Assembly (NCBI RefSeq): GCF_026210795.1
Contig: NC_089429.1
Location: 2,728,001-2,792,000 of the forward strand
Length of the DNA stretch: 64,000 bases
Direction of reading: 5' to 3'
From: Rhizophagus irregularis
Taxonomy: Eukaryota
Of this stretch, positions 3,227 to 64,000 are shown in pieces. Within the stretch, counting starts at the first letter, position 1, and each line of letters starts with the position of its first letter. The translations under genes and the position numbers were made by a program. Below the pieces are notes generated by a model, which was not told where the DNA came from, did no database searches, and saw nothing but the letters and a program-made list of their open reading frames with translations.

Positions 3227-3688
3227 CACAGGTCGAAAAATAAAAAATCAGGCATCAATCAGTCACTAATCAGGCAGTTTGCTAACTTTTGATCCAGTAA
3301 TCAAAAAAGAATAAAATATAGCTCATTGGAATCGTCTCAACAAGAAGAATCTAATGGTAGTAAAATTACATCTCTAGAATTAATAGTTAATAAAAAATTA
3401 AATAAAATATAAATGATACATTTTTATTTTTATATTTTACTTAATTCTTATCAAGTATTAATTCTAGAAATGCAATTTTACTACCATTAGATTCGTTTTG
3501 TTGAAACAATTCCAATGAGCTATATTTCATCTTTTTTTGATTATTGAATCAAAAGTTAGAAAACTGCCTAATTGGTGACGATATTTGGTGAAAATGCTAA
3601 TTAGTCACCAATCAGTCACCAATCAGTTATCTGATTGGTGACTGATTTGTGACTGATTGATACCTGATTTTTCACTTTTCGACCTGTG
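3227..3688. mobile_element. CACTA/CMC-type MITE, almost fully palindromic
   Basis: ~40-bp TIR CACAGGTCGAAAA..TCAGTCAC; 3-bp TSD CTT on both sides. Confidence 0.85.
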
Positions 3689-38740: not shown

Positions 38741-39088
38741 TATATACTAGCTCTATATAAGCAATTAAAATTAGATCACAAAGTTAAAATTATATTCTTT
38801 TTTTTTTGACATTTCAAGAAGTATATATTAAATGTTTTATGTAAAATGTTTTAAATTAGCTTTTTCTTTTTATTATTTTCAAATGTGTAATAAAATTTTA
38901 TATGTTTTTAAGGTATTTAAACAGCTGATCCAAAATTTAAACAATATAGAAAAAAATATTTTCATTACTGATTTATCATTTTTTTTTTTCACAGATAATA
39001 TTGATTATCAGAAGATTTTTTACTTTGAACATAAAGTAATACCATATTCATCCAAAAATAAACAACAACTTTTGTATGTAATGCAAGC

Positions 39089-39602: not shown

Positions 39603-40407
39603 AAATTACGTCATAGTCATATGATTTTATAGTAAACAATAATATTAAAATTCAAAGTTAACGAACTTCGCATCCAGTAATTCGATTTTTATGATCTTTA
39701 CACAGTTAGATTTAGCTCATTGAGAGAATCCCAATGATATGTATTTCATATTTGTAGCATCAATATTGACAGAGTTATTCACATTTAAAATTGGTATTAA
39801 ATAGTCTTATAATTTTTATAGTAAACAATAATTTTAAAATTTAAAGTTAACGATCTCCGCATCCAGTAATTCGATTTTTATGATCTTTACATAGTTAGAT
39901 TCAGCTCATTGAGAGAATCCCAATGATATGTATTTCATATTTGTAGCATCAATATTGACAGAGTTATTCACATTTAAAATTGGTATTAAATAGTCTTATA
40001 ATTTTTATAGTAAACAATAATTTTAAAATTTAAAGTTAACGATCTCCGCATCCAGTGAATCGATTTTTATGATCTTTACGCGGTTGGATTCAGCTCATCG
40101 AGAGGATTCCAATGATATATATTTCATATTTGTAGCATTAATATTGACGGAGTTATTTACATTTAAAATTTGGTATTAAATAGTCTTATAATTTTTATAG
40201 TAAACAATAATTTTAAAATTCAAAGTTAACGATCTTAGCATCCAGTGAATCGATTTTTATGATCTTTACGCGGTTGGATTCAGCTCATAGAGAGGATTCC
40301 AATGATATGTATTTCATATCTGTAGCATCAATATTGACAGAGTTATTTACGTTTAAAATTTTATATTAAATTATAATTATAAAAATCACATGACTATAAT
40401 GTAATTT
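39603..40407. repeat. Four tandem 189-190 bp units bounded by ~27-bp inverted repeats
   Basis: CATCCAGT recurs at 39671, 39860, 40049 and 40239; AAATTACGTCATAGTCATATGATTTT pairs with AAAATCACATGACTATAATGTAATTT. Confidence 0.85.
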
Positions 40408-40521
40408 CATATGGGCCAATTTGACGCATCTTCGATTTTGTCACAACATGATTATCATGATAATTATAAATAATTAAATATTTATTATACAAACTACAAA
40501 CTACATATTTTTCACGTCCTG

Positions 40522-41088
40522 ATGGTAAACCAGTTGTCTATTTGCTGCAAGCTTTGTTTTAAAGCTTTTACAACTTCCCAAAAATTATTTGTTTATGAAA
40601 GGAATAAACATTCACATAATAAAACAATACCCCACTTTTATTTTCTTTCTTGTCCTTCTTCAGAACAAATGTTTTTTTACATTAACTCCCTTATAGTTCT
40701 CATTAAAAAAAAGTTGGGTTTTTCTCGACACTCTATTGGAAAAAAACGTTTATCAATCGATATATTCCTAAAAAATATATTTGTATATCTATTTAAAGAT
40801 GAAGAAAATCTCAGATATAGTTCTGCTAAGCATAAATATCAATGTTATTTTCAGGGCTAGGGGGAAAGACCAGACTTAAACAAATACTCCAATATGATCA
40901 GTAGAGTTTTTAGCAAAATCCTCTAACTAATACTAAAGGTTATGTTTTACTTGAAGATTATGAAAATATGTATCAAGTTAAATTTATATGGAATCAGACG
41001 GTATTATCAGAGAATAATAAAGAATTCACATTAGAAAGAATGACGTGTAATTTTATTACTGATTTGGAAGAATTTGAGGAAAAGTAAT
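40522..41088 (+). pseudogene. C2H2 zinc-finger gene remnant, probably TE-associated
   Basis: CKLCFKAFTTSQKLFVYERNKH (first His decayed); reading frame continues past stops to ~41088. Confidence 0.5.
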
Positions 41089-42331
41089 AGATCTATATTT
41101 TTTTATTTATTTGTTTTTTTTTAAAAAAAGTATACATTATTTATCTTTAATTTTTTTTATTACAGTAATATAAATCAAGCACCTACACCAACAAATACGC
41201 AAATTTCAATATCTCAAGAGAATCCATCATTTTTATCCAACTACTTGAAGTAGCCTATTGAGAAGAAGTTTCGTTACATTTTACTACAGCCACCACTTCA
41301 AAATATAAATCAGAGTAAGTTAATTTTACCTTTATTTATTTTCTTTATCTCCTGCATCAATATGTCGCATTTGAATTTCTCATGGAGTATTATTTATTAA
41401 ATAATACAACTGACGGTTTTCAAATTTCATTATATCATGTACTACAGGTTTTTTTTAATTTTGCCACCCATAGTTGTTCTGCCAAAAAATAATCTAACCT
41501 AAAATTAAAATAATTAAATGTATAAATAATAATAATAGATAATTAGCCAATATAAACAGCTTAAAAATAAATAATAAATAAATAAATAAATGTAACGTAC
41601 CTGATTATAGTTTTTTTTTCAATACTTGAAGTAGAAAAAAGTTAATTTTTATCCTTTAGATTTTGCAAAAATTCTGGGATGTACTGGAAAAAAATATGCA
41701 TATAAGGAGTAACATCCTCTTTTCTATATAAACCTGGTATTTGTGATAATGAATTTAATTGTTCTTGACTTGGCCAATAAAATAATTTAATCCATTGCTT
41801 TGCTTTATTTTCAAAATTATCAATTTCAGAATTCGTTAGGTTAGGACTTTGTAAAACTAAGTATAATTCATAAAAATTATGCTATAGTTTTTGAATATCT
41901 TCACCGCATTAGGAAAATATTGCAGAACCTTTTTCTTGTCAGGTCCCATTAATGAAGTCCAATTCTACTTGCCACTATTTGATCTTGATTTAAAAAATTC
42001 AAAATGAACTTTAAATGATTTCATGGTTTGTTCAATTTGATTTTTAATTTCTCGTTCAAATTCCCTTTTTTTAAACAAATCATTGAAAAAGCATTCCATT
42101 AATACATCAGAAATACGTAATAATAGATGTAACAGGATCCTGAACAATATATATAAAGGTAGGTTTTGAGTTTAACCAACATATAAAAATTTTTCCTATG
42201 TAAAATTTATTATTGCTTATTTGATAACATAATTTTTAAATAGTCAGATATAATTATGCGTAGCAGAGTATTAAATTATTAATAGTCAGATATATATTTG
42301 CATAGCAGGATAGATTTTTTTAATATATATA

Positions 42332-42831
42332 TATTGTGCCTCAGATCAATTCTTGCCTCAGATTGAAGCTCACGCACCTCACATTGAGATTGTCACCTGA
42401 CACACCTCATTTGAATCATTCAATAAAGTCTGTTATAAAGTAAACTTTTTTTCTCATTAATTAAACCACTTTTTGTAACATAAACAAACTTGTGCACCAT
42501 AATGAGTTACATGTTTCCTGAAATATTTATGTAAATCCGATTTATATTGAAGTTTATATTTATGTTTTATCTGAAAAATAATTAAATTTTAAGTCATTTT
42601 TCAAATGAAAAGATTTAATAAGTATGATTCCAATTAATCTGAAATTATAGGATTGTATACTTAAAATAATGATAAATAAGTTTACTTAGTACTTAAAAAT
42701 ACATTAAAATTGGAAATTTTGATGTTTAATTATAGCTCATTTTTATTAGCAATTGAGGTACGTCAGATGACAATCTCAATGTGAGATGCGTAAACTTCAA
42801 TCTGAGGCAAGAATCAATCTGAGGCACAACA
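42332..42831. mobile_element. Ginger-like (TGT..ACA) MITE in a TA tract
   Basis: ~80-bp TIR T(A/G)TTGTGCCTCAGAT..; TATA flanks. Confidence 0.75.
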
Positions 42832-43477
42832 TATATATAATATAATATCTGATATATATTTACATTTTTCACATTAAAAAAAATTAATAAAATATATAAA
42901 CAAAGTTATAAATATATTTGTGTAAAAAAAAGTTACTATTTTTAATACAAAGAATAAGTTAATTGTATACGTAATATAGGAATCATTTTGAGACGTAATT
43001 GTGTAATGTGTTTTTGATAAAACAAATACGTGTCCACGTAACAGTAAAATTATAAATCATATACGTGTTCATGTAACAATAAAAAAATATATATTGAAAA
43101 TGAAAGCAATAGGTGGATGGGAAGGGAAAAATAAGTGGTTTTCTGTTTTTTTATAATTTTACACTATAATTTTTGTAATAATCAATAAAAGTTATTTCAT
43201 TTTTACTTAGAAAATTTTTTAAAAATATTTTTTTTAACAAATTTCACAGTAAATTTTAAAAATAAAAATTCCACGTATTGGTGGCATTACAAAAAACATG
43301 AATAAATCCATAAATATCTATTCAATCATAATAAATATTTATATATATAAGTAGATTCGAACCTGCTGAACAACTTTACTTAAGACAGTTTCAGATGTTT
43401 CCTTTGACTAAAGTGCTTAAATTACGCTCTGAAGTTACAGAACAAATATACGAAATATTAATAAAAAACATTTATAA

Positions 43478-43686
43478 AAGAATGGCCAGAAATGATGTCA
43501 TTTCCTTAGGGGGGAAGGGTTAAGACCATGATGATGTTACACACCTTCCATTTTTAGACACTTGTAGTTAATATAATTCTAGCCAGAATTGTGTTTTAAT
43601 TTTACATTTCCTAAAATGAATGATGATATAAAGAGAGAGAGGTCAAAAATCCTAAAATTTAAATTACGTCATTTCTGGCCATTCTC
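43478..43686. mobile_element. PIF/Harbinger-type MITE
   Basis: TIR (A/G)AGAATGGCCAGAAATGA(C/T)GT; TAA TSD on both sides. Confidence 0.8.
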
Positions 43687-44716
43687 TAAGTTGTAATATT
43701 ACAAAAAAATAATAATAGCTTTATCTATACATTATTTCAAAAATTTTTGTTTTTTTAGTTTTTTTTATATACATATTTTATAAAAAAAATTATATATAAA
43801 TATATATATGTTATAAAATAAATTGCTTAGCAGTGTAAAAAATTTATGGGTTAGATAAAAGTTTGCTTAGCAGATATGAAAAATATTTGCTTATTGACCT
43901 TAGTAAATTTTGAATTTTTAACTGACCTATATATATATTGTTTGGGGTCCTGATGTAACTCATCTGGAATGTAATTTTCTTGTTTAATAATAGGAAATAG
44001 CAATGGTTTTTTTTGACCTGTGAAAATTTTAAGATTAATTCGAATTTTTACATAATTATTTTTATAAATTTACACTTACACTTTGTGTTTTTATAAATTG
44101 GCCAGTATAAATCCATGTTCTAACGAACACTTGCCTCATAATCGCAAAATAGACAAAAATATTTTGAATTCAGTGCACCTAATCCCATTATATTGTACAT
44201 AAACTTCCAGTCAGCTGAAAAAAAAAACTCAATTAGCCAGTGCATACCGCTAATGGAAATCCCATTTTCTTGAAGATCTTGAAGTTGATATTTAAATAGA
44301 TTTCCAACTTTGGCTAATGTTTCGTTTCTTTCTTTACTTATATATAAACAAAAACTGATTTTTTATTATTTAGTAAATGTTCCAAAAAGAATTTATAAAT
44401 TATATTACTTATACTAATGATCAGGTTTTAACACATTGCCTTTTTCATTAATAAACACACAGTCATCATAACATGATTCTGTTTACAACCCACATTTCTT
44501 CCATCTCCACCAAGTTTCAAATTAATTGTATTTCCTGGTTAAAGAATTGGTGGGTTTGAACTATTCCAAATAAGAATAAGTATTTGAAGGAGATTTCTAA
44601 TAGATCAATAAACACCATTACTAATTTCTTGTTCATCAACTATAATTTCATCAGGATTACCTTGATGTTCTTCATCATCAAATATAAGTTGTTGATTAAA
44701 TTCTTTATCAGGATTA

Positions 44717-44916
44717 TACAGGTCAAAATGCTAAAAATTAGCAAAAAAAATGGCGCGAAAAGCAGTGGCTATTCTTGGCTATTTATGACTATTTATGGCT
44801 GTTTTTGGCTATTTGCGAATTAACTTATACTATTTGCAAATAGTTTATACAAATTTGCAAATAGTTTATGCAATTTGCGCCATTTTTTTTGCCTGTTTTT
44901 GGTCATTTGACGTGTG
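44717..44916. mobile_element. CACTA/CMC-type MITE inserted in the transposase
   Basis: Imperfect ~45-bp TIR (T/C)ACA(G/C)GTCAAA..AAAAATGGCGC; 3-bp TSD TTA; terminus resembles that of 3227-3688. Confidence 0.75.
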
Positions 44917-45198
44917 TTAATTGTTCCAATAGGTATTTGTTCATTAATCAATTTTGTAATCTTTATTCTCCTTTGTGCAACTTGATATTCACGTATTAAT
45001 CGTGCTTCTACAGAAGCAAGCCTTCGATATCCATCACGGCCTAATAAAGCTTCATCACATGCGCGTACATAGGCATTTAATTTTATATAATTTAATGATA
45101 AGTTGTATTTTATATTAATAATATGTTCTTCATATTCCAATTCCATATTACGTAAGTGAATTGGTTCTCTAAATTCTGAAAACATCCGATGTTATAAA

Positions 45199-46569: not shown

Positions 46570-47341
46570 CCCAGTAAGAAAAATCGCATACTGAAAATAT
46601 ACTGAAAATATACTGAATTTTAAGAATATTTAACTATATAATCATGTATATTATAAGTATAAATTAAATATAATTTTAGTATATTTTATGTAAGATATTT
46701 ATATCCATAAATAATGCTAAAATTATGTTTAAATATACTGTATTTAATATGTAAAAAGCTCATAAAACACCCTTAAATTTTGCCTCTTTAAGTATATTTT
46801 AAGTGCAAATTTTATGTCATTAATTTCTACTTAATTTCAGGATAATTTTATTTCGTGTTATTATATATATTTAAGTATATTTAAAGCCCATTTTCAGTGT
46901 ATTATAAATATGATTCAATTGTATTTTGCATATATTTTAATAATATTTCAATTAGAAATAACATATATTTTTAGTAGTTTTAAAGGTCAATTTAGTTCAA
47001 ATAAAATAATATTTTATGTATCTTTTAATTAAAAATAGCATACATTTTTACTTGCATTAAAGATTATTTTAATTACATTTTTACATTTGATAATAATGAT
47101 ATTTTTAGTATATAAATACAATATCGATATGGTTTGATTATATTTCAATAATAATTCGTGTACATTTTAAAGGCTATGCTAATAACCAATGATACAAATA
47201 ATTTCTATAGTAAAGTAAAATGTTTAATTTCATATTTCTGAAACTATATAAAACGAAAATAAATAAAGAATAAAATAAATAAAGAAAAGAAGATACAGTT
47301 AGGAAAACTTATTTTTCATACCCATTACACAATAACTCGGA

Positions 47342-47838
47342 GACCCATTTAATTTAATGTACTTATTAAAGAGGGGAAAAAGTTATATTAGTAATTTAGT
47401 TATTTAATTTTAAATCCAATACAATAAAGTTTGATGCATACCTGTTTAATAAACATAATTTTTAAGTAAAAAATACTTATACATGTCTACAATTAACACC
47501 TCGACACGGACCTATTTAATTTAATGTACTTGTTAAAGAGGGGAAAAAGTTATATTAGTAATTTAGTTATTTAATTTTAAATCCAATACAATAAAGTTTG
47601 ATGCATACCTGTTTAATAAACATAATTTTTAAGTAAAAAATACTTATACACGTCTACAATTAACACCTCGACACGGACCTATTTAATTTAATGTACTTGT
47701 TAAAGAGGGGAAAAAGGTATATTAGTAATTTAATTATTTAATTTTAAATCCAATACAATAAAGTTTGATGCATACCTGTTAATAAACATAAAAAAATACT
47801 TATACACGTCTACATTCTACAGTTAACACCTGACACGG
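47342..47838. repeat. Three tandem ~167-bp units
   Basis: AAAGAGGGGAAAAA at 47368, 47535 and 47702. Confidence 0.9.
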
Positions 47839-48368: not shown

Positions 48369-51300
48369 TCAATGCCCAATATTTTCCCAATTAGAGTCAT
48401 CAAATGCATTTTCTTTATCAATTATATAATATCTATTATCTATTTTAGCAAAACCTATACAATGATCTAAACATCTTACATCGATAAATTCTTTTGATCT
48501 GAATTGAGTAAAATGTTTACATCCATATTCATCTTCTACAATTTTTGATGTTAATTGTACATAGGCTAACATGTAAACCTGATGGTTGAATTCATGGACA
48601 AGATAATAATTTACGATTCCATATATATCTACAATAACGAGTTGAGGAGGCGCATTGGGTCCGTGGGCAAGTTTATCTATTGTGCGTCTTATCTAAAAAT
48701 ATTTATAAATAAAATATAAAATCAATATTAAAATTATATCAAAAAAATAAAAAAATAGCAATGATAGTAATCAAAGATTATAAATTTTACCTGAAGCACA
48801 ATAATTATTTCTTGCAATTTTATTATTTCTTTTTATACAACAGCTACTAATATATTGTCCATCTGAAGTTCTTAATCTTCCATATCTTACACCATAATTA
48901 TTAACCTCCTAAAAAACGAAATTATTTTGTTATTGTAATGATGAATTTAAAATTAAATAAAATAAAGCTTTATATTACCATTTCTAAATCATTACGATTT
49001 ATATTGCTTGATCCTTCGTAAAATTTAATCAGATGTTTGTGTTCTTGGCTTGCAGAGAATATTGAGTAGAAGGGGAATAAAATTCTTCTTCATACCCTTC
49101 AGTACTAAAGACCCGTTCCTTACTCCATTGTTTTAGCGGGTTTTCTTTGAAAATAGCTTTTGAGATAGAAAAAAATGGTAACATATAAAATTGCTGTAAC
49201 AAAGTAAGCATATTTGCAAGGTTGCTATATGGCTTGATCTTTGATTTAATGAGTGGTTGTAATATACCACACACCCTTTCCATAGGAAACTGCCAATGGG
49301 TTCAACTAGGGCCACAATATTTAATAGAATTTGCTACATGTAAGAGGTAATGGAAACTTATCTTACATGCTGCTAAACGTCGGGCTATTGTTCGATAATA
49401 CTCTCTAAAATAATTAATCATTATTTTAATTATTATACAATTATAAATTATAAGACAGAAATCATTACCTTTCATAATAATCTGAAAATTTTTTAAGCAA
49501 AATTTGTACATCATCAATTTGTTCTTCAGATATTTCAGGTTCTAAACAAAGCTTTACAGACTTCACAAAGTTTGCCCATCCTTGAAGATGCCTATTATGT
49601 AACGAAAAGTAAAATTTACTTTTTGATTAGTTAAAAAAATTTAAAAATGTATTAATTTAACTTTTTACTTTTTATTAAAATACCTTTTATCCAGATACAT
49701 CTTTAGTAATGGTAATGAAAATAAAATTATCCAATTTCTCCATTCTACCGCTTTGTAACCATTATGATATTTAAATATGTCACGTGGAGGGCGACCAATT
49801 TCAATAGGCATATTTTTTTTTACTTTTTCCATTTGTATGCCAATACTTTCCCACTGTGATTTTGATAACTCATAATCACTAGACAATAATAGATTGTTAT
49901 AAAAAAATTTTCCACTCCAATGTGCATTGACGTGCGCCATTCTCGAAGAATAAATGCATTATATCTGTTGGGAAAGACCATGGAAATAATAATGTTTGTA
50001 ATTTTAACAATTCACTGGACCCTTTAATTCCTGTATAGTAAAGTAATAATAATTAATACAGAGATGTAAGTATACTTTTACTTTTTTTCTCAAGAAAATC
50101 ATACCTGTTTCTCTGATCATTTCATCTTTTCGATCTTTATTCGTTTCTTCTTCAATTAATTTTCCCATATTGATCGTGTCATCATGATTTCTTATATTGC
50201 AAAAAGCAGATGATGGATAGTATATGTGTTTATTTGATGGGTGACAAGTCCCTTTTATCATACAAAAACGACAACCTTTATACGAATTGTGTCCAGAGAG
50301 GTTTAAGCTTTTGCTTAACGCTGGAACATCCCCCGTCCATGTTAATAAATGTGCGCGTAAAATAAAAGGTTCATTTGTTCGTCCATCTATACATTGAACT
50401 CCTTCTATAATATTTAACAAAATAAAATTTCAATTATAGAAAAAATACATTTTTATTAGATATTAAAATTAGCTATACCTTCAAGTTCTTGTAATTCTTT
50501 TATAAGAGGGCATAAAAAAGAATTAAAATTCTTTGGCGAACGGGGACCTGGTATTATCATTGTTACCAGTAGATTTTCTTTTTTTACACGAATAGAAGGA
50601 TGAAGATTATTATTTATTAATAAGATGACCCAACAATCATCGGTTCGTTGTTCAAAGATCTGATATCCATCACATGTCCCGGATAGTGCAATATCCCGTT
50701 CATCTTTAAAAAAACCCCTTTGTAATAAATCCTTATATAACCTATTGAAAGAAACATATTTTAATGGCCTTTTTTTTAAAAAAAAAATTTACTTTAGTAA
50801 TTAAATTATACTCACAATCCATCAAAGATATCAGCATATATTTCCTCCTCTCCTTTGTTTTGGGAATAATTACTTCTATATTGTAATTCTTCGGCTCTTT
50901 CTTTATTCTTGTATTGAATTATTAGGCGTTCTTTTACCGAAAAAAAAAATGTTGTATTTACAGGTTTGCCATTATCATCAAATCTGTTTTCACCACAAAT
51001 AGGGCAACTGGCTAAATTTTCATATGATGATGTAAATGCAATACAACTGTTTTTGCAAGTATCGTATCCATGAGGTTCAAAAGGAACTATGCTATTGATT
51101 TTTTTTTCAACTTATAGATTGCTAAATTAGAATTAACATTATCAAGTATTTTGTTGAATGCGATGTCAGATATTGAATGGAGTACTTTTGTATGTAAAAG
51201 ACGTAAACCTTGAATCAATTCATCTAAAATAAATAAATATTATTATTCTATCAAAATTAAAATCAATAAACATAGTATTAACTGTACTATCGTTTATGTT

Positions 51301-51972
51301 TGTCATTTCAGATTCCTCAAATTCTTTATCATCATCTGTTAATTCATCATTCTCTTCAGAAATATATGCACTTGTTTGCGAACAATCACTTTCAGTTTCT
51401 ATGTCTCCTTTATCATCTTCTTCATCACAATCTTTATTATCAAGACTTTGCCTATCACTATTCTTATCGTAATCTTCGTTATTAGGAATTGGATTACCAT
51501 TATTATAATCTTCGTTGTCAAGAAATGGCTCATCGCTATCATCATCATCATAATCTTCTGATCTGCAATTAACATGATTTTGATGATTATTAAAGTATTA
51601 TTATAACAATAATGTTTAATAAAAGTAAAATTTACTTTTTTTTATAAAACAATTAATTAATTACCTTTTTGGTATGTCTTTTAAAATTACAGGAACATGA
51701 TCGTTATTTGAAATATTGCTTTCTGAACTTGTATCTGATTTATCCGATTCATCGTCTTCGAACTTTTTTTTTTCAGCTGCGTTACAACTTGAAATTGATT
51801 CACTATCGCTTTTTGTTTCTGATCCGCTTTCTGCTTCAGATTCATTAATTTTTTCAATATTTGCTTTTTCTCTTTTTTGATGTTTTTTAAAAGTTTTTCT
51901 AGTAGACAACCACTTTCCGTTACCATCTTTAGAATTTATTTTACAAATACGACAAGAACAAAGAAATGGCAT
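48369..51972 (-). pseudogene. CACTA/EnSpm (Tnp2, Transposase_21-type) transposase, multi-exon, disrupted
   Basis: YDTCKNSCIAF..CPICGENRF, YADIFDG, GTCDGYQIF, IIPGPRSPKNFNSFL, TGDVPALSKSL..GHNSYKGCRFC, DIMH, GYKAVEW, HYLLH, WQFPMER; in-frame TGA at ~49302 and frameshifts. Confidence 0.9.
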
Positions 51973-52145
51973 TTTGAAACGTGATAGAATTTATGTAATG
52001 ATATATTTTTATAAACAATCACATAGTTTGTATTACATGATTGTATTAAATTTACGCATTAAAGTTAGAGGTTGTGTTACAAGATTGTGTATCGTTATTA
52101 GAGATGATATAATAATGACAATATTCGTAATAATTATACTGATTG

Positions 52146-52884: not shown

Positions 52885-53830
52885 ATGGAACAAACACCCG
52901 AAACTGAGGTATAAAAGTAAAAATATAAAAATATTTTTAATAATCTATAATCAAAAATTCTTACTTTATTACTATATTATAGCTCAGTCATATATAAGCC
53001 TACGTCTAAATATAATTTACAAGATGCGTTAGGATTAAAAAATGAAAAGCAACGCTGGCTTGCTTATTTGGTAACTATTTATTAATTTTTAATAAAAGAT
53101 AAAAATTGTTTTTTAATAGTAAATTTTTGTAATAGGAGATAATGCGAGAATGTCTCTACGAAAAGAATGTAGATTTTACCGCCGATTATAGGAGTCAAAA
53201 GCATACAATAACTGCACAAATAGTTCGTTCTGTAAATATTAAATTTTAATTTTCGTCATTTCTTTTTTTTTTGAAGTATACTAAAAATTATTATATTATA
53301 GTTTAAAAAAAAGGCTCCTGACTTCCTATAACCGCAGCCGATTGGGCTGTAAAGGAGATGCTTGTTAGTACTATACAAAATAAACGTAAGTTAATAATAA
53401 CTTTATTTATACCTAGTTGGTTTATAGTAGAAATTAATTATTTCATTTTATTTATAATAGGCTATTATCTGAAAAAAAAAAAAATGAATTAGAAAATAAT
53501 TTAAGAGTTCCACCACAAAATTCTCCAGCATTACAGGACCGTCCTCCACCATCTCCTCAAGCACAACAAGATCCTCCTTCTCCAGTTGAGCCTTCTGATG
53601 AACAAGTTCAGATCTGGCCTCCAGTTGAGCCTTCTGATGAACAAGTTCAGATCCGGCCTCCAGAACCACGTACTGATGAACAAGTTCAGGTCCGGCCTCC
53701 AGAACCACGTACTAATGAAAAAGTTCAAAGTGATCCTCCAAAAAGGGTCCGGAAACAACATGTAAATGACAAAGAAAATCAAAATAATGTCCCCAAAAAA
53801 AGAGGAAGAAAAGCAAAATCAAGTAAATAA
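52885..53830 (+). pseudogene. TE accessory (TnpA-like) gene divergent from the transposase; 39-bp repeats in the last exon
   Basis: Exons read KYNLQDALGL..WLAYL|EIMRECL..VDFTADYRSQK..|FKKKAPDF/ITAADWAVKEML..NKR; 4x39-bp PPVEPSDEQVQI repeats (53580-53735); ends KKRGRKAKSSK*; frameshifts. Confidence 0.65.
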
Positions 53831-54218
53831 ATAAACTTGATCTCGGAGATGACAATTTCTTCGTTCTTGTATAAAACGAATCATACATAGTTTTGACTTA
53901 ATTAGTTCAATAAATCTTGTTATGATAAACTATTGGTTAATTCATCTTCTCATACACTATATCAGTATTCGGCATTTCATTCGAATTAAATTAAAAATTT
54001 GAAGACGTTTAGATTACCTCCGCATAAATAATTTGAATTGTGTAACGCGTAATTTGTCCACGCCTCATTACGCAATGTTTAATTGTTCTAATCATTAATA
54101 AATAATCTACACACTATAAATTACTTTGATAAGAAATTTTACACATTTAATCTTTTTTGTTCTAAAAAATCGCTTAAATCTTATAAATACCTTTCCCTTC
54201 AATTATGATAACTTACAA

Positions 54219-54726
54219 ATGAAGATGGTTCACAAAAGAAGTCAAAATAAATTACAAGAACGAAAAAATAAATCCTTTTCGAATAATAAAAGAAAAAGAG
54301 ATAAGGTGAGTGAACACTTGAGAACCGCCTAGAGTGGTTACTAGGTTCGCCCGTAGTTTTTCAGATCTTTTAGATAGCTTTTTTTATTTTTTTTCTTCTA
54401 TTTTTTATTTTTTTATTTTTTTATTTTTTTTTGGAGGGTTTAATAAAAGATGGAGTATATAATTGTATTCGGTTGTTATCTGGTTTCTAATTAAAAAATT
54501 GGTTTAGGTCAACTCTTTAAACGAAACAATTGAAAATAAAGATAAAGGTAATTATAAATTATTATTGTATAAATAATATATATCAATTACTAACATTTAT
54601 TTAGAAATTACACAATTAAAACGGCAAAAAACATTTGCCGTTGAATTATATCAACAAAAGTTAAACCAAATAATAGAAATAGAAAATAAATTAGAAAATA
54701 ATTGCAAATGTATAGAAAATGAATAA
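54219..54726 (+). CDS. Small basic + coiled-coil (bZIP-like) protein, 3 exons, ~82 aa
   Basis: Exons 54219-54305, 54508-54547, 54605-54726 splice in frame: MKMVHKRSQNKLQERKNKSFSNNKRKRDKVNSLNETIENKDKEITQLKRQKTFAVELYQQKLNQIIEIENKLENNCKCIENE*. Confidence 0.6.
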
Positions 54727-55331
54727 TTTTGTTAATAAATTATATGTTATTATAATTCAAGAACTACGTGAAAAATTTTTTTTTTTGATGGGAGAAAAAA
54801 ATGATATGTTCCCATATGAAATAAAAATGATATATCTTCCATACAAAACAAGTTTTGTGAGAAAAAAAATCATTTTTTCACGAGAAAAGGAGTTTGTCAA
54901 ACAAGATCTGCTACTTTTACGTAATTACTAATAGCTCATTTATTTAATATTTGTATAATTTATAAAATAAAATACGAATACTGACAAAAAGTAAATTTTA
55001 CTTTCAGTTAACAACCAGATCGGCATACTGTACTATTCCGATTAAAGTTTCTAGCACGTTGTTTGTAATTAATTTTGTACTTTTCTTTGTCCCCATTTTT
55101 CCCATTTCACAAAAAATTCATCAGATCTTATCGTTCTCGTGTATTTGCTAAAATCCTTCTTTTTGAAACATGTATTTTCTCACGCATTTTTTCCTATATA
55201 TACAATCCAATTACGTAAAAATTATTTTAAGTTTTCGTAACGTCTAAAACTGTGGTCTGCTTGGAAGGTTTTAGCCTGCCGAGATAGTTTTAATGATAGG
55301 AATAACTTTTAATTTATATAATAGATTCACG

Positions 55332-55968
55332 ATGGTCGGACACCGCTCTCAACGTTCGAAGGAAAAACGAATTGCTCGCATTAAGAGCAAGAGAGGAAGT
55401 GCTCGTCAGGTAGTTGCAGGTGGGTTCCCTCTACATGATATCCTGGGGGCTTAGATTGTTCTAAAGAGGGCTTGTGGACGTTTGTCCTGAAATGATCCTG
55501 TGGACGTCTTTGGATTGTTCTAAAGGTGACTTGTGGACGTCTGTTCTAAAACGAATCTGTGGACGTCTAAGCGGTATCGGTGTCAACCTAAGATGGAGAA
55601 ACCCGCTTGGTCGAGCTGCGCATAGATCAAGTTAACCAATTTTTTTTCCCCCATTAGATTACATAAAGGAATTGGAAAAAAAGGTGCAGGAACTTCAAGA
55701 GCAAGTGAATGGTATGGATCGGGCTTACAGAGATGACCAGAGAGAATTGCTGCGGGTACATAATGAATTAAAAAAGGCAGAGAGGAAGTAAGTAATCAAC
55801 TTTTTTGCTAATAAGTTTCCTTAAATTAATATAATTTTTCACTTTTATTTTATTAGGATTACTTGTTTAGAAGGGGAGGAAAGGGATGAAGAAGGCCAAG
55901 AAAGAAGACAAAGAAGGGGACAGGGACGAGGGAAAAGGGGAAACGTTGTTGTAAGTTGTAAATATTGA
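55332..55968 (+). CDS. Small bZIP-like protein, 3 exons, ~109 aa
   Basis: Exons 55332-55419, 55658-55787, 55857-55968 splice in frame: MVGHRSQRSKEKRIARIKSKRGSARQVVADYIKELEKKVQELQEQVNGMDRAYRDDQRELLRVHNELKKAERKITCLEGEE..RGQGRGKRG..*. Confidence 0.65.
55451..55568. repeat. Intronic ~59-bp duplication with four TGTGGACGT motifs
   Basis: Directly visible. Confidence 0.75.
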
Positions 55969-57179
55969 CGTGCTTGGTAAACTAGTTTTAAGAATGAAGG
56001 ATAAAATCTAGCGCAAAGAGTAGTGACAATACAAAGTGCAATAAAATTACAGGTATTGCGAATAAAATGACTAAAGAGCCAAAAGACAGCGAATAAAATG
56101 ACTAAAAAGCCAAAAGACAGAATGAAAAAAAGAAAGATATAAATGAATGTAAACGAAAATGATGCAGACCTAACCTGACGTTATACATTATATGTTATAC
56201 TGTACGAACCCTGTTGTGATATTAAAGTCAATCGGCAAATATATATACAGTATATATATTTCAAATAAATCTTAATAAAAAAATCAACGTGTAACTGAAT
56301 GATAAATTTTCTTTACCTGAAGATTTTTTTAGGTCTCCCGGTTCGTAAGACGAAAACGTCTAACGTAATGATTCAATTTATGATCGCATTGCACATTGCG
56401 CAAGTTTAATAACCCACCTATTATTTTTTTTTATTTATTTATTATATATCTAATAATTATTTTCACACGAGAAAAAAAAATTTTTTGTCAATCCTAACTG
56501 TTACATTCTGCTACCATCAAAATTGTCATTTTTTTTTTAGTGAGAAAATTTTTTATTTGCGGAAAAAAAAATACCGAATGGGAGAAATGTGGATGTTGCA
56601 CAGAGTTTAATGTGTCATGCTAAGGTGGTGGAACATCATTATTATAACACAATTAAATCTTACGCGTGCACTTCCATTTTTGGTTCATCAAATCCACTTT
56701 GCCATTAAAGTATAAATACACCGCTTCCATTAAAAGATGTAAAGATGTAATTCAATATCGAATTACATATTACGATTAATATGTCCAAACAAAAAAAAAT
56801 CGAATTACATATTACGATTAATATGTCGCAGCAAAAAAGCCATGAAATAGAATTACATATTACGATTAATAAATTTATCAAAAAAAAAATTAAAAATTCA
56901 TTTTTTGGTTTTTCTTTCTCTAATTCTCTTCTTTTTTTAAAAAAATACTGAATTCTTTCTACCACCTTTATCGCAATTTTAAAATATGGACTCTTTAAGA
57001 TCATTAAAAATACCAATTATCCAGCTGCAAAAAAAGTATTTTACCTTATAATTTTGATTCTGGAGAACAACCCGAAACAGAACAGCCTGCAACAGGTTTG
57101 CAAAGTTAATTATTTATTTTGTATCTAATTCTAATAAATCAATTAATATCTACTTCAATTTTGAATCAATATTTCATAA

Positions 57180-59025
57180 TTGGATATATTTAAAGATAAA
57201 CAAGAACCATTGGTCCTAATAATTTCTCCAAGTGTTACAAGTGACGATGGTTCTTTTGGTTCTCCTAGTGTCGGGGTTGGGGTTTCTGAAACTTTTAGTA
57301 ATAATGGCACTAAAAAACCAAATATAAATAATGAATTTGACAATGATGATAGGAATGAAGAACAGGATCATGGTCGAAGGTTAGTTTTAAAATTAATATG
57401 ATTTTATATTTAATATATGTGCGAACACGGTATAACAGTAATATTAAAGTTTATTAAATAGTTATTAATTAACACAATTTTATTTACAAAAAGTAAATTC
57501 CTTTTTTCTTATTTATATTTTATAGATGATCAAGTAAAAGTATTGGATACCAATACTGATGATGCTAACGAAGATTTTTGTAAGTTTCAATTTATATCTT
57601 ATAATCTTAGTAATTTAGAGCAAACAGTAATATTTAAATTTATGTTTATTATTTTCTATTTATTGTAATGTATAAGGTTCAACCCAAAAAAATGATAAAA
57701 AAGAACGAAAATTGGTAAATTTTCGCATTTTTTTTCTTACCTTGTTGATTAACAAAAGAGATACTTACTTTTTGTTATTTTAAATTATATTAGATACCTC
57801 GATGCGTAAAAGGGCTAAACCGGGTATTGTATAATTCACAGAAAGTAAACTCTGAAACTTGAATTTGAAATAATATATATATTTTTCTTTAGACGAAAAA
57901 ATATTATTGGCCATTAATAAGATCGGAGGTCCCACAATAGATTCGTTATTATATTCATTGAGCAAATTGAAAAATACCGGAGTTAAAAGTGTAACAATGA
58001 ACTTGGTTAATAATAATATACGATTTATGGATTCCACAGGAACATTAGTGATAAAGCCAAATCACGTTAACTCCGATGATATAACAATTAATGCCAGTTT
58101 TCCTCATTATGATTATAATCAAGCCTCGGATCTCAGCTTCGAGGCAAATATTATCGAATTAAAGAAATTCAAAGAATTGGATATGGCAAGTATAAGATTG
58201 GCGGAAGATTTGCATAAGCTGCTAGGTTATATTGGTAAATTGCCAAATAATCCACCTATACGTGATAGGTCAATCTTCAGTAAAAAAGAAGAGTATAGAG
58301 AAGCCCTCATTAGTCATTTGGAAAAGATTAATTCAACACAAGATTTTCAATCTTTTCGTGGTACTCAACGTATTAATTTGATTTCTGATGACAATCAAAA
58401 AAGTTGCAGTTCTTTTAAAATTTTACCAATTCGTGTGCAAGAAAAGACTTCATCACTTACTGAATTATCTGATGAATTCAAGAAGATTGCAAAAGATTTA
58501 TCGGAGGATATATTTTTATCCGTAATGGGAGAAGCAAATGAGCAAGGAAATAAAGAAATGGCCAGACGTAAGGAACTAAGGTTTCATGTCGGGTTTTTTA
58601 AGTCATACATACAATTACAGGCTTTTTGTGAGATAAACTTAAACAGAAAACAATCAGAGACGACAAAATCTCAAGCAAAAATATTAATTGCTCAATTTTA
58701 CCCCTTAATTTCTTTACCGAATTTGGAATTGATGCTTCAGCGAGCACCACGTATATACAGGTTACTAGAAGTAGCCAATTTTGATTGGCGACTTTTAGAT
58801 TCTTTCGAAGAATTAAGCGCATGTTTTTTTAAGAGTGGAGTAAAGACGGCAATTAACTTTGAAATATGGATTAATTTGGTCTGTACAGGCAAGCTGATTA
58901 GTTATGACGAAGAATTAAAAACTCAAGAAAGAAATAGGGAAAACAAGAGGATTAAAATTGAAATTATTAAGGAATATTTTGATATTTCAGGGGTTAATTT
59001 TGACGAGATGGTTGGTAATGAGTAG
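57180..59025 (+). CDS. Multi-exon gene of unknown function; 5' end uncertain
   Basis: Microexons near 57527, 57678 and 57794, and a 1.13-kb open terminal exon containing QRAPRIYRLL..RLLDSFEELSA. Confidence 0.65.
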
Positions 59026-59359
59026 GTAGTAAACAGAGAAAAAAAAAATTTTTTTGCAGTCAAATAGTTTTGCATTATAATTAGAATGAATTTATATTAT
59101 AATGATAAAAAATGGACTCGAAAAGCGTTGCAACCTCCAGATTTATAAATTAGCATTATAAGTAATTTAGTAATTTTACATGAATAAAAGGCTAAATAAT
59201 ATGCAATCTTTTATTGTTTGCGCATTCTAACATTTGCTAAATAAACTTGCTATAATTGCTATCGTTTACTATCATAAATAAATAAATAAATAAATCAATT
59301 TGTGGCTTAGCCTATTTTTACATGAAAAAAACTCCGATATGTTATTTATGTATACGTTT

Positions 59360-60190
59360 TTATGTATCTAAAAAATTAAATGTTAATTAATGATCTAGTT
59401 TAAAATTTTAAATTTATAATATTAAACATACCGTCCCATATTTTATTCTCTTTTTCTGCTGTTATTTCAAATTCCTCAAAACCATCATACTCTTCAGAAG
59501 TACCACTTTCTGTCTCTGAATTATCATTATCATAATTATCAATGATCTTAAAAGGTCCATAATCATAATCATCAAGAATTTGATCATCGCTAAAGTAATT
59601 ATTAGGAAAATGTAAGTTATATTTTTTATTATAAATAATCGATCAATTACCTTTTAGATGTATCTTCTAACACTGAAGGAAATGGAACATCAAAGCTTTG
59701 ATTATTACTGTCACTAAAGTCATATTATAACAACAATTAGTAAATTAGTAAAAGTAATTTTTACTTTTAGCAATGACAGTACGATATATTAGCTAATATT
59801 TTAGGAGGTATAATGATAATTTTAATTATTCGTAGATAAAGTAAAAAAATTGACTATGCTGATTTTAAATAAGGGCAATTTTAACAAATAAGGGAAGGTT
59901 TTCACTTTGACAATCTCAATTTAGTGTAGCGAGAGGTCCCTGACAATAGGAGAAATAATGGTAAGACAACAGTAAAACAAAAATTTTAAAAACATTGATG
60001 AAACTTACCGAAAGTTCATCATTCCAAAAATATGTTTTTCTTTCATATTTACCTAAAGTCCATTCCAAAGTCCAGATGTTCTGATTCTAAAAACGAAAAA
60101 ACGTTAGTTATAATATTTTTAATATAAATACATTTACACCTAATTACCTGAAAGGCCGTTCCAAATGGTTTTTTCTTTCAAGTATCTATA
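59360..60190 (-). pseudogene. Multi-exon remnant encoding an acidic protein
   Basis: Phase-compatible GT-AG exons ~59651-59714 and ~59431-59589 (DDQILDDYDYGPFKII..EEYDGFEEFE); upstream exons contain stops. Confidence 0.4.
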
Positions 60191-60689
60191 TAGAAGGAAG
60201 ACATAAAATAGAGTAATAGATTGATTAATATACGTGAAGTATGAGTCTTCAGAAATAAAAATCAGCAAAAACAATGTGTATAAATAAGATAGAACAAGTA
60301 TCGATATGCGCCCAGTCTTAAGCCGCAGGATCCTCTTCAAGAAAATTTTATTTTCTAGAAGAAGAAACCTGAGTCTTGGACGATACCAATCCTATGTATG
60401 CGCTTAGTTTTAAGCTGCATGATTCTCCTTAAGAGAAGAAACCGAAAATAACTTAACAATTAATAAATTAAAATTTAACTATGGGCATAATACTGGTGTA
60501 ATGATGAAAAGATTGATGACATAGTAAATCATGTAAAATTTCTTTTTAGGTCATATTAACGAGGATTTTTTTTCCTTTTTTATGTATTCAACCGCAATAT
60601 GGAGAATCGTGTGAAATTTCTTAATGAACTGCAAATGCTTTTAACTCTCTTTTTTCCTTTTTTTCAACATCCAATTTTATATCGTAAAC

Positions 60690-61919
60690 ATGGATATCTT
60701 GCCAGAAATCGACTTAAGTGAGAACAGAATTACGAATAATACAATTGACAAACTAATCGAAACGCTTAAAACTACCAAGTTCAAGGTTAACCTTATTATA
60801 CAAATTAAGATATATTTTAAATATAAATCTAAAGTTTTTATTTGAATTAGAAATTGAACTCGAGAGTGTCTTCACTAAAAATAACAAACAAGAAACCTTT
60901 GAAATTTTGAGAAAAATATGCGAAGTAATTAAAGAAAGCACAAATTTGGAAGAACTGATAATTAGTAAAAATGCACTAGGAAAAAGCGGTGCAAAGGCGT
61001 TAAAAGTTTTTTTAACTAATAATGTTAATTTAAAGCACTTGATAATCGACGACGCGGGGGTTAGGCGAAGGAGGTACAGTTATATTAGAATCGTTATTGA
61101 ATTCGAGAAGGAAAACTTCTTATTTAGAAACATTTTCAATAAAAGAAAATGTTTTAGGAAAACAGTGTTCCAAACTGCTTTCTATGGTTCTACATAAACA
61201 TAAAATTACACTAACAAAAGTAATTTTGTCTCGAAACAGCTTTTATAACTCAGATCTTTGTCGAATAATAGAGTCTTTAAGTTTGTGTAAGAAGTTACAA
61301 ATTATTAATCTCGAAGATAATTTTTTCACTAAAAAAACATCGAAAATGCTTAGTCGATCTTTGGCTAACTGGCCGGATTTAAAACAACTAATAATTAATG
61401 ATTGTTTGATATGTAAAAAAGGTGTTATATATATTTTAGAGGCATTATTAAAGGGTACCAATAAAAATATTGAATATCTGGGGTTTCAATATTGTAGTAT
61501 TGATGAGAATGGGTTCTATACTTTGGCAAGTATAATTAAAAAAAGTCTAATGTTAAAAGTGGTGGAAATCAATGGGAATTATTCGATTAAAAAAAAATGT
61601 ATGTCAAAGCTAAATTTGGTCTCTAAAAAAAATGGAACCTTGATAAATGGATTTGATGATTTAATTAACGAAGATGATGAGGGAGAAGAAAAGGAGGGAA
61701 AGGAAAAGGAGGGAAAGGAAAAGGAACTGGACGATAATGAGGTAGAGGAAATTCATAATGACATGAAAGGGAAAGGTCGATGATGGAAAGGAGGGAAAGG
61801 AGGAGGAGGGGCTGGACGTAGAGGAAGAGGAAGGAGACTATGATGAAAAGGAGGGAAAGGAGGAGGAGGGGTTGGACGTAGAGGAAGAGGAAGGAGGCCA
61901 TGATAGAAAGGAGGAGTGA
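60690..61919 (+). pseudogene. Divergent RanGAP (Rna1)-like LRR gene with acidic tail; three single-base frameshifts
   Basis: IDLSENRI|LESVFTKN..ISKNALG..DAGLGEGG..NLEDNFFT..LANWPDLKQLIINDCLI..FQYCSI..EINGNY..FDDL + D/E tail; frameshifts near 60858, 61056-61060 (G5) and ~61766. Confidence 0.8.
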
Positions 61920-62194
61920 CTGATGATGAAATCATGAGTTTTATAATAATAATAAGATAGTGCCGTAGTACAGTTGCGATTTTATCGTAAAATTAAAATA
62001 TTTTGTATATATTGTGCCAGCTGGCAACTTAATAAACATCCCATGACTTTAAATTTTAGCTGAAAAGTTAATTGAACGAATAATTTACTTACATTAATTA
62101 TTCTACGTAAAAATCATTCATAATTTTTTATTTATTTTTTTTTTACATTTTATAATATAAAATTATAAATTCAGTCTAATGTGATAAATCGGAT

Positions 62195-63185
62195 ACTATT
62201 ATTAACCAAATTCATTGCTACACTTTTAACTCCAGTTTTTTTCAATTTGCCCAAAGAATAGAATAATGAATCTATAATAGGATCTCCAATATTACTAATA
62301 GCCAATAAACTTTCTTTGTCTAAAGAAAAAAATATATATATATTACTTCAGATTCAAGTTCACAAGTTTTGCTTTCTGTTAATTATACAATACCCGGTTT
62401 AGTCACTTTTTTACATATCGAAGTATTGCCTAATATAATTTAAAATACCAAAAAGTAAATATTACTTTTGTTAATCAACAAAGTAGAAAAAAAATACGAA
62501 ATTTTACCGATTTTCACTCTTTTTTTATCATTTTTTAGGGTTGAGCCTTATATAGAAACAATAAACATAAATTTAGTATTATTGTTTGTTCTAATTATTA
62601 AGATTATAAGACATAATTTGAAACGTACAAAAATCTTCGTTAGTATTATTGGTATCCGATATTTCTAATATTTCTACTTGATCATCTATAAATAAGTAAA
62701 GAAGAATTTTACTTTTTGTAAACAACAAAAGAAATGATGAAAAAGAACTACCATCACTTTCCCTAACATGTTTTTTGTTTGAATTTCCTTCGATATCTCG
62801 CGATGCTTATAATATAAATATGAAAATTGGATTAATAACTTTATAATAATTATACATAACAAAATCTCAATATTACTGCTATACCGTGTTCGCCTATATA
62901 TTAAATATAAAATCATAGTAATTTAAAACTAACCTTCAGAAAGACTTTACCAACCGTGCTATTAAGATTAGAAAGATCGATATTTTTAAAGATAATCCAG
63001 AACCATTTGTCCTAATAATTCCTCCTAGTATTACTGGTGGTGATGGTCCTCCTGGTTCTCCCGGTGGCATTGTTTCTGAAACTTTTAGTAATAATGCACT
63101 AATAAAAAACAAAATAAAAATAATGAAAATAATGAACTCTAACTTGGCATCGAAATCTATAATTATGAAATATTGATTCAAAAAA
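62195..63185 (-). pseudogene. Inverted, truncated paralog of the 57.2-58.0 kb gene segment
   Basis: 62195-62938 is a diverged reverse complement of ~57377-58020 including introns; 63160-63183 matches 57159-57182. Confidence 0.8.
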
Positions 63186-64000
63186 ATTGATATAAAATTC
63201 GATTTATATTGCCACACATTTTATTTTTTGTTTTTTTTTGTTCTCATTTTTTACCTGCACAATTCTTGCATTTGTCTTTAGTTTTTGACATCTTTTTTCA
63301 AAAAATAATTCGTGTCTTTTAAAGAAAGAAAGAAATTTAGTTTATAAAATTAAATAATCTAATTACGTTATTTTATTTAATTTTTTGCCGATCGAAATAT
63401 TCATGTACTCGATCAGAATATTTTAAGGACACATCATCACATACCAGGTCATTTGTGAAACCGATACGAATAGTATATAGTCCTTCCCGGAATATTTTAA
63501 AATATTACAATTCGAAACACTATTTTAAATATCCATTTGTACAATTTCAGTATATTTTAAGAATATTATATTAACATACCTAAATTACTGATAAATTACT
63601 TTTAAGGATATTTTCCATATCTAATCAGAATATTTTAAAATACCAGTCAATATTACATTTAAAAATTAAGTATATTTTTCGTATAATTTAAACTTATTTA
63701 TTATTATAGAACACTATTTTAAATATACTGTTCGTACAAATTTCAGTATATTTTAAGAATATTATTACTATATAAGGATATTTTAACCATAAAACTAGTA
63801 CAGTTTAAGGATGTAGACTTTTTATAGGGCTAATTGATATTTAGAAAAAGAAAAATTAAAGAAAGTATTATAAAATAATAAAATTAGCAACAAACAGATA
63901 TGTTAGTAGAAAATTCAGTATAAATTTGTGGAGCCAAAAACGTTAATTATTGAAATTAATAAAAAATTGGTAGTTTGTAAAAGTTAGTATACGAATTTGT

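What the first reader, a model, noticed from the sequence alone, without database searches (positions are those of the whole stretch)
60690..61919. TE-borne RanGAP paralog with its conserved surface motifs replaced
Seen: repairing three 1-nt frameshifts gives a full RanGAP/Rna1 architecture with LRRs in the right order and a long D/E tail built from ~60-bp repeats. The structural motifs are kept (DNFFT, W..L..L.INDCL, QY, EINGN). The family signatures are altered: FTGR->FTKN, SDNAFG->SKNALG, GRNRLE->KENVLG, QNGI->RNSF. Established: these motifs are highly conserved in RanGAPs, and a duplicated RanGAP is the driver of Drosophila Segregation Distorter. Inference: a captured, repurposed RanGAP (decoy or pseudo-GAP) could affect nuclear transport or nuclear competition in a coenocytic fungus. 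It could also simply be decaying.
Basis: partly seen in the sequence, partly recalled or inferred. Interest (0 to 1): 0.85.

Follow-up and report, generated by a model that had tools for sequence, protein, structure and literature searches.

The report
Transposon carrying a rewired RanGAP copy
In the root-symbiotic fungus Rhizophagus irregularis, about 14 near-identical copies of a remodelled nuclear-transport regulator gene (RanGAP) sit beside the same DNA-transposon gene; the protein has lost most contacts used to switch off Ran, so it likely acts as an inactive decoy, which is untested.

Summary
The gene is real and RanGAP-derived (best PDB hit Rna1p, E 9e-30). Its homologues are named Rhizophagus irregularis. 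The three frameshifts are most likely assembly errors: short-read contigs lack them, and published models of the same copy read through all three. The host keeps a canonical RanGAP (about 30% identical). A published annotation lists 14 paralogues; 10 of 14 have a CACTA/CMC tnp2-family gene 4-6 models away, among different host genes, so the gene is transposon cargo. Relatives occur in R. clarus, Funneliformis and metagenomes (41-68% identical). The altered motifs are fixed across them, and dN/dS against one syntenic relative is 0.17, so this is a selected new surface rather than decay. Contacts to Ran's switch regions are lost; acidic contacts to Ran's basic patch are mostly kept. Five of seven lineages end in a nuclear-localisation-like tail; this copy does not. 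Present copies look silenced (CpG-type mutations; 0 of 33 RNA libraries, a biased count). Best reading: a transposon-borne pseudo-GAP. Ran binding, expression and any drive effect are untested; Drosophila Sd differs in being an active enzyme.

The parts
60690..60785 (+). RanGAP-derived gene, exon 1 (32 codons)
   Evidence: 100% match to P0002 residues 1-32; ATG and donor context
60786..60850 (+). 65-nt GT-AG intron, phase 0
   Evidence: sequence context; intron at the same position in relative L001; splicing not seen in RNA here
60851..61919 (+). RanGAP-derived gene, exon 2: LRR domain and charged tail; three 1-nt breaks (after 60858, in 61056-61060, at 61779), most likely assembly errors
   Evidence: tblastn; contigs of 4 runs; syntenic models P0008, P0053, P0061; model pLDDT 80.7 and best fold match Rna1p
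61679..61914 (+). repeats that build the acidic/basic tail (15 bp x3.1; 60 bp x2.2); unit number varies among copies
56986..59025 (+). neighbour gene 'N' (515 aa, multi-exon, no Pfam match), travels with the RanGAP-like gene
   Evidence: tblastn; adjacent locus tags at 7 of 10 loci; N-family gene in the same place in L001; no family
59403..60440 (-). small intron-rich gene and upstream region between N and the RanGAP-like gene (limits approximate)
   Evidence: ORF pieces; window 60025-60440 is 74% identical to the same place in L001
62184..63220 (-). truncated, inverted paralogue of N's 5' part
   Evidence: self-BLAST 81-86%; tblastn 72%
48369..51990 (-). CMC/CACTA-type transposase gene (tnp2), multi-exon; integrity not checked
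   Evidence: PF02992 E 7e-13 and 6.7e-5; tnp2-family gene 4-6 models from the RanGAP-like gene at 10 of 14 loci
53438..55887 (+). further probable cargo gene pieces of unknown function
   Evidence: ORF 53438-53830; 55492-55887 matches the N-terminus of public model P0154; no Pfam
46570..46740 (.). candidate left end of the element (inferred): CCCAG start and short ATATACTG repeats
   Evidence: 14-nt inverted matches to 63548-63561 and 63744-63757; AT-rich, weak; no terminal inverted repeat or target duplication shown
63450..64000 (.). candidate right subterminal region (inferred); the true end probably lies beyond the window
   Evidence: 5-8 contigs in 3 of 4 runs join here from other sequence; inverted short repeats

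Best explanation
This RanGAP-derived gene, most likely intact in the fungus, is carried as cargo next to a CMC/CACTA transposase, and its protein is predicted to be a catalytically dead pseudo-GAP that would still hold Ran. SHOWN: RanGAP descent; a separate canonical RanGAP in the host; about 14 dispersed near-identical copies; linkage to tnp2 and to gene N; a derived surface fixed across Glomeraceae relatives; purifying selection against one syntenic relative. INFERRED, step by step: (1) an ancestral element of 17 kb or more captured a RanGAP copy before Rhizophagus and Funneliformis relatives diverged; (2) the residues that contact Ran's switch I/II (human D86, D121, R189, R191 equivalents) were replaced, which should abolish or greatly cut GTPase activation; (3) the residues that hold Ran's basic patch (D245, D273, F302 equivalents) were mostly kept, so the protein may bind Ran-GTP without switching it off and compete with host RanGAP; (4) this would shift nuclear import or export in the element's favour when the element is active, which explains selection on cargo; (5) the host now keeps most copies methylated and quiet.
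For: Descent: Rna1p best in PDB by sequence (E 9.3e-30 against 8.8e-10 for ribonuclease inhibitor) and by fold (ranks 1-3 are RanGAPs; alignment held RanGAPs, so not independent); Atlas neighbours RanGAP at 0.95. Canonical gene: P0366 keeps all motifs. Intact. Cargo: 14 paralogues plus 1 canonical in orthogroup OG0000561; tnp2/OG0000002 gene 4-6 models away at 10 of 14, p about 2e-7 ignoring repeat clustering; gene N within 2-3 tags at 7 of 10 loci in a second annotation; same gene order in L001 at 61% identity. Selection: dN/dS 0.17, bootstrap 0.09-0.25, 263 codons. Fixed changes at columns invariant in canonical RanGAPs: D121->K/R 6 of 6, Asn(Sp131)->D 7 of 7, R189->E 7 of 7, R191->V/I/M/L 7 of 7; kept D245 7 of 7, D273 6 of 7, F302->Y 6 of 7. 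Roles of these residues from PMC13317620 section 7 (simulation, preprint) and PMC12246119 section 9.
Against: No binding, activity or localisation test. The kept Asp residues lie at positions where many LRR proteins have Asp, so they may be structural; E304 is lost in 7 of 7. Only 36 of 65 highly conserved RanGAP columns are kept, and 5 of 16 polar/charged ones, which fits loss of Ran binding as well. All 14 paralogues are under 1 RPKM in 33 of 33 libraries while the canonical gene is above it in 33 of 33; the best RNA runs held at most 0.32 of the gene's words apart from one run flagged as probably DNA. 26 of 35 single-base amino-acid changes among copies are C>T/G>A and 11 of 35 are at CpG, and several copies are truncated. 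This copy lacks the nuclear-localisation-like tail of most relatives. Element ends were not found. The tree does not place the family inside Glomeromycota RanGAPs, although that placement is not rejected (p-AU 0.34).
Confidence: 0.45

Rival explanations
1. Same origin and cargo status, but the LRR horseshoe was re-purposed for a partner other than Ran (the transposase, another cargo protein or a host silencing/transport factor).
For: The concave-face ladder changed from D,N,R,Q,D,D to K,D,E,R,D,D and is fixed across 6-7 lineages; only 5 of 16 conserved polar/charged columns are kept; stem branch 1.1-1.5 changes per site; synteny with N-family genes at 61% identity.
Against: D245, D273 and F302 equivalents and an acidic tail are kept; no partner is identified; neighbour N could not be folded with confidence.
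Confidence: 0.3
2. Passenger: a captured RanGAP copy without present function, amplified only because the element transposed recently, and now silenced and decaying.
For: 0 of 33 libraries for 14 of 14 paralogues; CpG-biased changes, 11 of 22 possible non-synonymous CpG transitions already seen; truncated or interrupted copies, and a stop codon in L002; N also occurs at loci where no RanGAP-like gene was listed.
Against: dN/dS 0.17 between two cassettes of the same gene order; 58 columns invariant among 5-7 lineages at 41-68% identity; the expression count used featureCounts defaults, which drop multi-mapped reads (recalled), so near-identical copies would score zero even if transcribed.
Confidence: 0.15
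3. Still an active GAP with a compensated interface, sent to the nucleus, where it would flatten the Ran gradient like Drosophila Sd-RanGAP.
For: Bipartite NLS-like C-terminus in 5 of 7 family lineages against 0 of 9 canonical RanGAPs; net charge of the ladder unchanged and Asn->Asp is conservative; RanGAP works by restraining switch II without a classical arginine finger (PMC12246119).
Against: Four columns invariant in 176-194 canonical sequences are changed, two by charge reversal; this copy has no such tail; no segregation or nuclear-ratio data.
Confidence: 0.1

Closest known systems
RanGAP/Rna1p (S. pombe 1K5D, 1YRG; human RanGAP1 9B62; R. irregularis canonical P0366)
   Same: LRR order and fold (TM 0.73, rmsd 2.3 to 1K5D chain C), structural Asn/Leu/Gly ladder, D245/D273/F302 equivalents, acidic tail.
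   Different: About 30% identity to the host's own RanGAP; N-terminal ~30 residues missing; FTGR, SDNAFG, NNGLG, GRNRLE and QNGI rewritten; about 14 copies on a transposon; no counted expression.
Drosophila Sd-RanGAP (Segregation Distorter)
   Same: A duplicated RanGAP beside an intact parent gene; several relatives here have a nuclear-localisation-like tail.
   Different: Sd is a C-terminally truncated duplicate that stays enzymatically active and mislocalises (PMC8284685 passages); this family is old, mobile, has a rewritten catalytic face, and no drive or responder is shown.
CMC/CACTA (EnSpm) DNA transposons with captured host genes
   Same: PF02992 tnp2 transposase, assigned to CMC in PMC5751038; CMC and Plavaka families are known in R. 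irregularis (PMC11075540); dispersed near-identical copies among different host genes.
   Different: Carries several whole intron-containing genes over about 17 kb or more, one under long-term purifying selection; terminal repeats and target duplication not shown here. That captured genes on plant CACTA elements are usually fragments is recalled.
Starship giant cargo elements
   Same: Large fungal element with a mobility gene at one end and variable cargo behind it.
   Different: Starships use a DUF3435 tyrosine recombinase and seem confined to filamentous Dikarya (PMC13465315 passages); no such domain among 72 window ORFs scanned.

Membership tests
RanGAP/Rna1 family (by descent) | Best sequence and fold match is RanGAP, not generic RNI-like LRR | tested here: met
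   no tree with generic LRR outgroups was built
RanGAP/Rna1 family (by descent) | LRR domain followed by an acidic tail | tested here: met
   tail of 87 aa with 45 D/E and 12 K/R; first ~30 residues absent
Active RanGAP | Invariant motifs facing Ran switch I/II (FTGR Arg, SDNAFG Asp, NNGLG Asn, GRNRLE Arg pair) | tested here: not met
Active RanGAP | Acidic/aromatic contacts to Ran's basic patch (human D245, D273, F302, E304) | tested here: inconclusive
   3 of 4 kept in this copy, E304 lost
Active RanGAP | Binds Ran-GTP and stimulates hydrolysis | not testable with these tools
   needs biochemistry; no Ran sequence was held for a complex model
CMC/CACTA transposon cargo | Linked tnp2 (PF02992) transposase at independent loci | tested here: met
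   window; 10 of 14 loci
CMC/CACTA transposon cargo | Dispersed near-identical copies with different host flanks | tested here: met
   10 loci on 8 contigs in one annotation; differing neighbours in another; judged from annotation tables, not DNA
CMC/CACTA transposon cargo | Terminal inverted repeats and 2-3 bp target duplication | tested here: inconclusive
   only short AT-rich inverted matches; right end probably outside the window
CMC/CACTA transposon cargo | Intact DDE transposase able to move the element now | not tested
   exon structure and catalytic residues of 48369-51990 not worked out
Segregation Distorter-type driver | Enzymatically active RanGAP mislocalised to the nucleus | tested here: inconclusive
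   catalytic-side residues changed; NLS-like tail in 5 of 7 lineages but not this copy
Segregation Distorter-type driver | Biased transmission against a sensitive target | not testable with these tools
   needs nuclear-ratio data in heterokaryons
Starship | DUF3435 tyrosine recombinase as first gene | tested here: not met
   no such Pfam match in 72 ORFs of 36-64 kb

The most novel reading that the evidence does not exclude
A selfish CACTA-type element of arbuscular mycorrhizal fungi carries a RanGAP-derived, nucleus-directed regulator that alters the Ran gradient of the nuclei that bear it, and so biases nuclear import, division or sorting into spores in the shared cytoplasm: a transposon-borne counterpart of Segregation Distorter.
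Probability: 0.07. Interest if true: 0.92.

Novelty: new variant of a known kind. Interest (0 to 1): 0.62.

Why it matters
RanGAP is normally a single, very conserved gene. A derived family that has been kept under selection on a mobile element across Glomeraceae suggests that a transposon gains something by touching the host's nuclear transport. That gives a concrete, testable candidate for how genomic conflict could act between nuclei in these coenocytic fungi, and a natural set of substitutions for separating Ran binding from GTPase activation. It also shows a multi-gene cargo element in a lineage without Starships, and that 14 genes annotated as 'Ran GTPase-activating protein 1' in this model fungus are probably not working GAPs.

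Tried and rejected
No whole genome is held for this window, so copy number and linkage come from public protein records and one published table, not from DNA. Pseudogene reading of the three breaks: rejected. Only RanGAP of the genome: rejected. The 81-86% inverted repeat round the gene (57376-58028 / 62184-62937) as terminal repeats: rejected, it is a truncated paralogue of gene N. TAGTG at 61958 as a CACTA end: rejected, since the sequence beyond it is also conserved in L001 and no CACTA was found in 45.5-48.5 kb. Terminal repeat search 36-48.4 kb against 61.9-64 kb: six 14-nt matches, none decisive. Pfam gives no family for P0028 or N. Atlas on N: only unnamed Mucoromycota clusters at 0.89-0.91. 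Fold of N: pLDDT 51.6, not searched further. Origin of the family in the RanGAP tree: unresolved, long branch and biased composition; the first tree held one badly trimmed row and stopped at the quick method, the second used 32 rows. Contig depth over the gene is about half that of the left flank in 2 of 4 runs, but that figure is no copy number. No complex was modelled: no Ran sequence was held, and a pass would rest on likeness to 1K5D. Three look-ups of earlier findings were empty. The supplement of PMC10234402 could not be read and may bear on expression.

Full report
OBSERVATION. The window has an ATG at 60690, a GT-AG intron at 60786-60850 and a stop at 61917-61919. A search with the longest open piece returned 27 proteins, 23 of them named Rhizophagus irregularis; the best are 94-99% identical and intact, such as P0002 and P0028 of 387 aa. 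The window differs from P0028 by three 1-nt breaks, and its 301 in-frame codons checked have no mismatch. The protein begins about 30 residues into Rna1p.

THE BREAKS. Short-read contigs of four runs lack break 1 (4 of 4), break 2 (3 of 4; the fourth has no contig across it) and break 3 (4 of 4); 12 indel rows were shown for this 9.5 kb and 29 more were not. Those contigs merge all copies, so they show the consensus only. Copy-specific evidence comes from a published annotation (PMC6123716, supplement file 7): RIR_3019600 has the window's neighbours (peptidyl-tRNA hydrolase, chitin deacetylase, BTB protein, arrestin, P450, tnp2). Its models P0008, P0053 and P0061 read through all three breaks and share the window's own variants, an Arg near the tail end and a Cys in neighbour N. 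Two residues near the tail end still differ. The breaks are therefore most likely assembly errors.

WHAT IT DESCENDS FROM. Rna1p is the best PDB match by sequence (E 9.3e-30; ribonuclease inhibitor 8.8e-10). An AlphaFold model (pLDDT 80.7; the alignment included RanGAPs) has RanGAPs at ranks 1-3, and Atlas neighbours are RanGAP clusters at 0.95. R. irregularis has a separate canonical RanGAP, P0366, with all motifs; it is 31% identical to P0028 but 81-86% identical to the canonical genes of Funneliformis and Glomus. The derived family includes R. clarus (P0218), Funneliformis caledonium and F. mosseae (P0217, P0358; 41%) and unnamed metagenome proteins at 55-68%. It forms one clade (SH-aLRT 100) on a stem of 1.1-1.5 changes per site. 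Its attachment point is unresolved: the trees put it outside the Glomeromycota RanGAPs, but holding it with them is not rejected (p-AU 0.34).

IT IS TRANSPOSON CARGO. A tnp2 transposase (PF02992, E 7e-13) lies at 48.4-52.0 kb; PMC5751038 assigns this domain to the CMC superfamily. In the published table the orthogroup holds 1 canonical gene and 14 paralogues. At 10 of 14 a tnp2/OG0000002 gene lies 4-6 models away in the same numbering run; 2 more have only the companion gene OG0001061 at 3-4 models, and 2 show neither in the rows held (the file is cut at 16,542 rows of 41,572 models, and not every flank prefix was searched). Chance is about 2e-7 if repeats did not cluster. The host genes beside the copies differ (P450, GSK3, RasGEF, cysteine desulfurase). 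In a second annotation the gene occurs at 10 or more loci on 8 contigs, with neighbour N within 2-3 tags at 7 of 10; member lists were capped at 15, so these are lower bounds. Metagenome locus L001 (61% identical) has the same order: N-family gene, small minus-strand gene, RanGAP-like gene with the same intron position. The ends were not found; weak inverted AT-rich repeats at 46.6 kb and 63.5-63.8 kb suggest an element of 17 kb or more (inferred).

SELECTED, NOT MERELY DECAYED. Against L001, dN/dS is 0.17 (bootstrap 0.09-0.25; 263 codons; dS 1.24; simple counting method on AT-rich DNA; one pair only). Against 194 canonical RanGAPs (118; 76 picked by motif, which inflates conservation; 4 long rows left out), P0028 keeps 36 of 65 columns that are at least 90% conserved, but only 5 of 16 polar/charged ones. 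The replacements are fixed in the family: D121->K/R 6 of 6, Asn(Sp131)->D 7 of 7, R189->E 7 of 7, R191->hydrophobic 7 of 7, Gln(Sp196)->R 7 of 7. D245 is kept in 7 of 7, D273 in 6 of 7, F302 as Tyr in 6 of 7; E304 is lost in 7 of 7 (human numbers counted from the alignment). PMC13317620 (section 7, a simulation preprint) has Ran K71 pairing with D86/D121, R191 approaching GTP, and Ran R95/K130/K132 pairing with D245/D273/E304; PMC12246119 (section 9) describes activation by restraining switch II and contacts by R93, D273 and F302. So the switch-facing half is rewritten and the basic-patch half is mostly kept. That Arg91 and Asn131 are needed for activity is recalled; one search found no paper for Asn131. 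A bipartite NLS-like pattern (recalled consensus) ends 5 of 7 family lineages and 0 of 9 canonical proteins; the R. irregularis copy has the 60-bp acidic repeats in its place.

PRESENT STATE OF THE COPIES. Among 63 public R. irregularis models there are 37 distinct isolated substitutions; of the 35 explained by one base, 26 are C>T/G>A and 11 are at CpG, against 1.1% expected. This suggests methylated, recently amplified copies; synonymous changes could not be counted. All 14 paralogues are under 1 RPKM in all 33 libraries, the canonical gene above it in 33 of 33. The count used featureCounts defaults, which drop multi-mapped reads (recalled), so it is weak for near-identical copies. Expression and splicing remain open.

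HOW IT LIKELY WORKS. My best reading (0.45) is a pseudo-GAP that holds Ran-GTP without switching it off and so tilts nuclear transport for the element when the element is active. Rivals are a new partner (0.30), a functionless passenger (0.15) and an active nucleus-directed GAP (0.10). The descriptive core (RanGAP-derived, intact, transposon cargo, selected family) I rate at about 0.9. Drosophila Sd-RanGAP is active and mislocalised (PMC8284685), so the parallel is one of origin, not of shown mechanism.

NOVELTY. Searches of the held library (listings only) showed no paper on this family or element; most subscription journals are not searched. PMC4771724 notes a KOG1909 expansion in Gigaspora without analysis; whether that is the same family was not tested. 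The genes are annotated in public records as ordinary RanGAP or RNI-like proteins. I file it as a new variant of a known kind.

PAPERS SEEN. Passages: PMC4771724, PMC2265111, PMC8284685, PMC11075540, PMC13465315, PMC5751038, PMC10234402 (supplement not readable). Passages and one section: PMC13317620, PMC12246119. Passages and rows of supplement file 7: PMC6123716. All others: search listing only.

Noticed in passing
window 56986-59025 and 62184-63220: Gene N belongs to a family without Pfam match, multi-copy in R. irregularis and R. clarus, with a 44% subtype; some copies sit at loci where no RanGAP-like gene was listed, which suggests element variants with different cargo.
   Followed up: partly
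window 60005-63300: Contig depth is about half that of the left flank in runs X1 and X12 but not in X2 or X5; it may reflect elements with and without this cargo, or presence in one nuclear type only. Depth here is no copy number.
   Followed up: no
window 59027-59141: Contigs of two DNA runs skip these 113 bases just behind gene N's stop: a length variant among copies or strains.
   Followed up: no
window 61957-61980 and L001 4505-4525: A non-coding motif of about 22 nt shortly behind the stop codon is conserved between the two cassettes, as are two short upstream motifs near 60480-60620.
   Followed up: partly
window 911-1874 and 37779-38742: Two inverted copies of a 964-nt repeat, 97% alike, 36 kb apart, each with internal 147-nt tandem units.
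   Followed up: no
window 40474-45191: Fragments of what looks like another decayed DNA transposon on the minus strand, without Pfam match; tandem arrays at 39613-40360 and 47342-47791.
   Followed up: no
window 3227-3688, 36429-36854, 42318-42845, 44718-44915: Short elements with inverted ends, MITE-like.
   Followed up: no
L001 3300-3382: In this relative the first exon seems reduced to about five codons, so the first LRRs are lost while the rest stays conserved.
   Followed up: partly
P0022 (public model): One R. irregularis copy is annotated as a fusion of transposase-like sequence to the C-terminal half of the RanGAP-like gene, probably an insertion into that copy.
   Followed up: no
P0216: An unrelated, unnamed 1094-aa protein holds three tandem copies of an animal-type RanGAP domain.
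   Followed up: no
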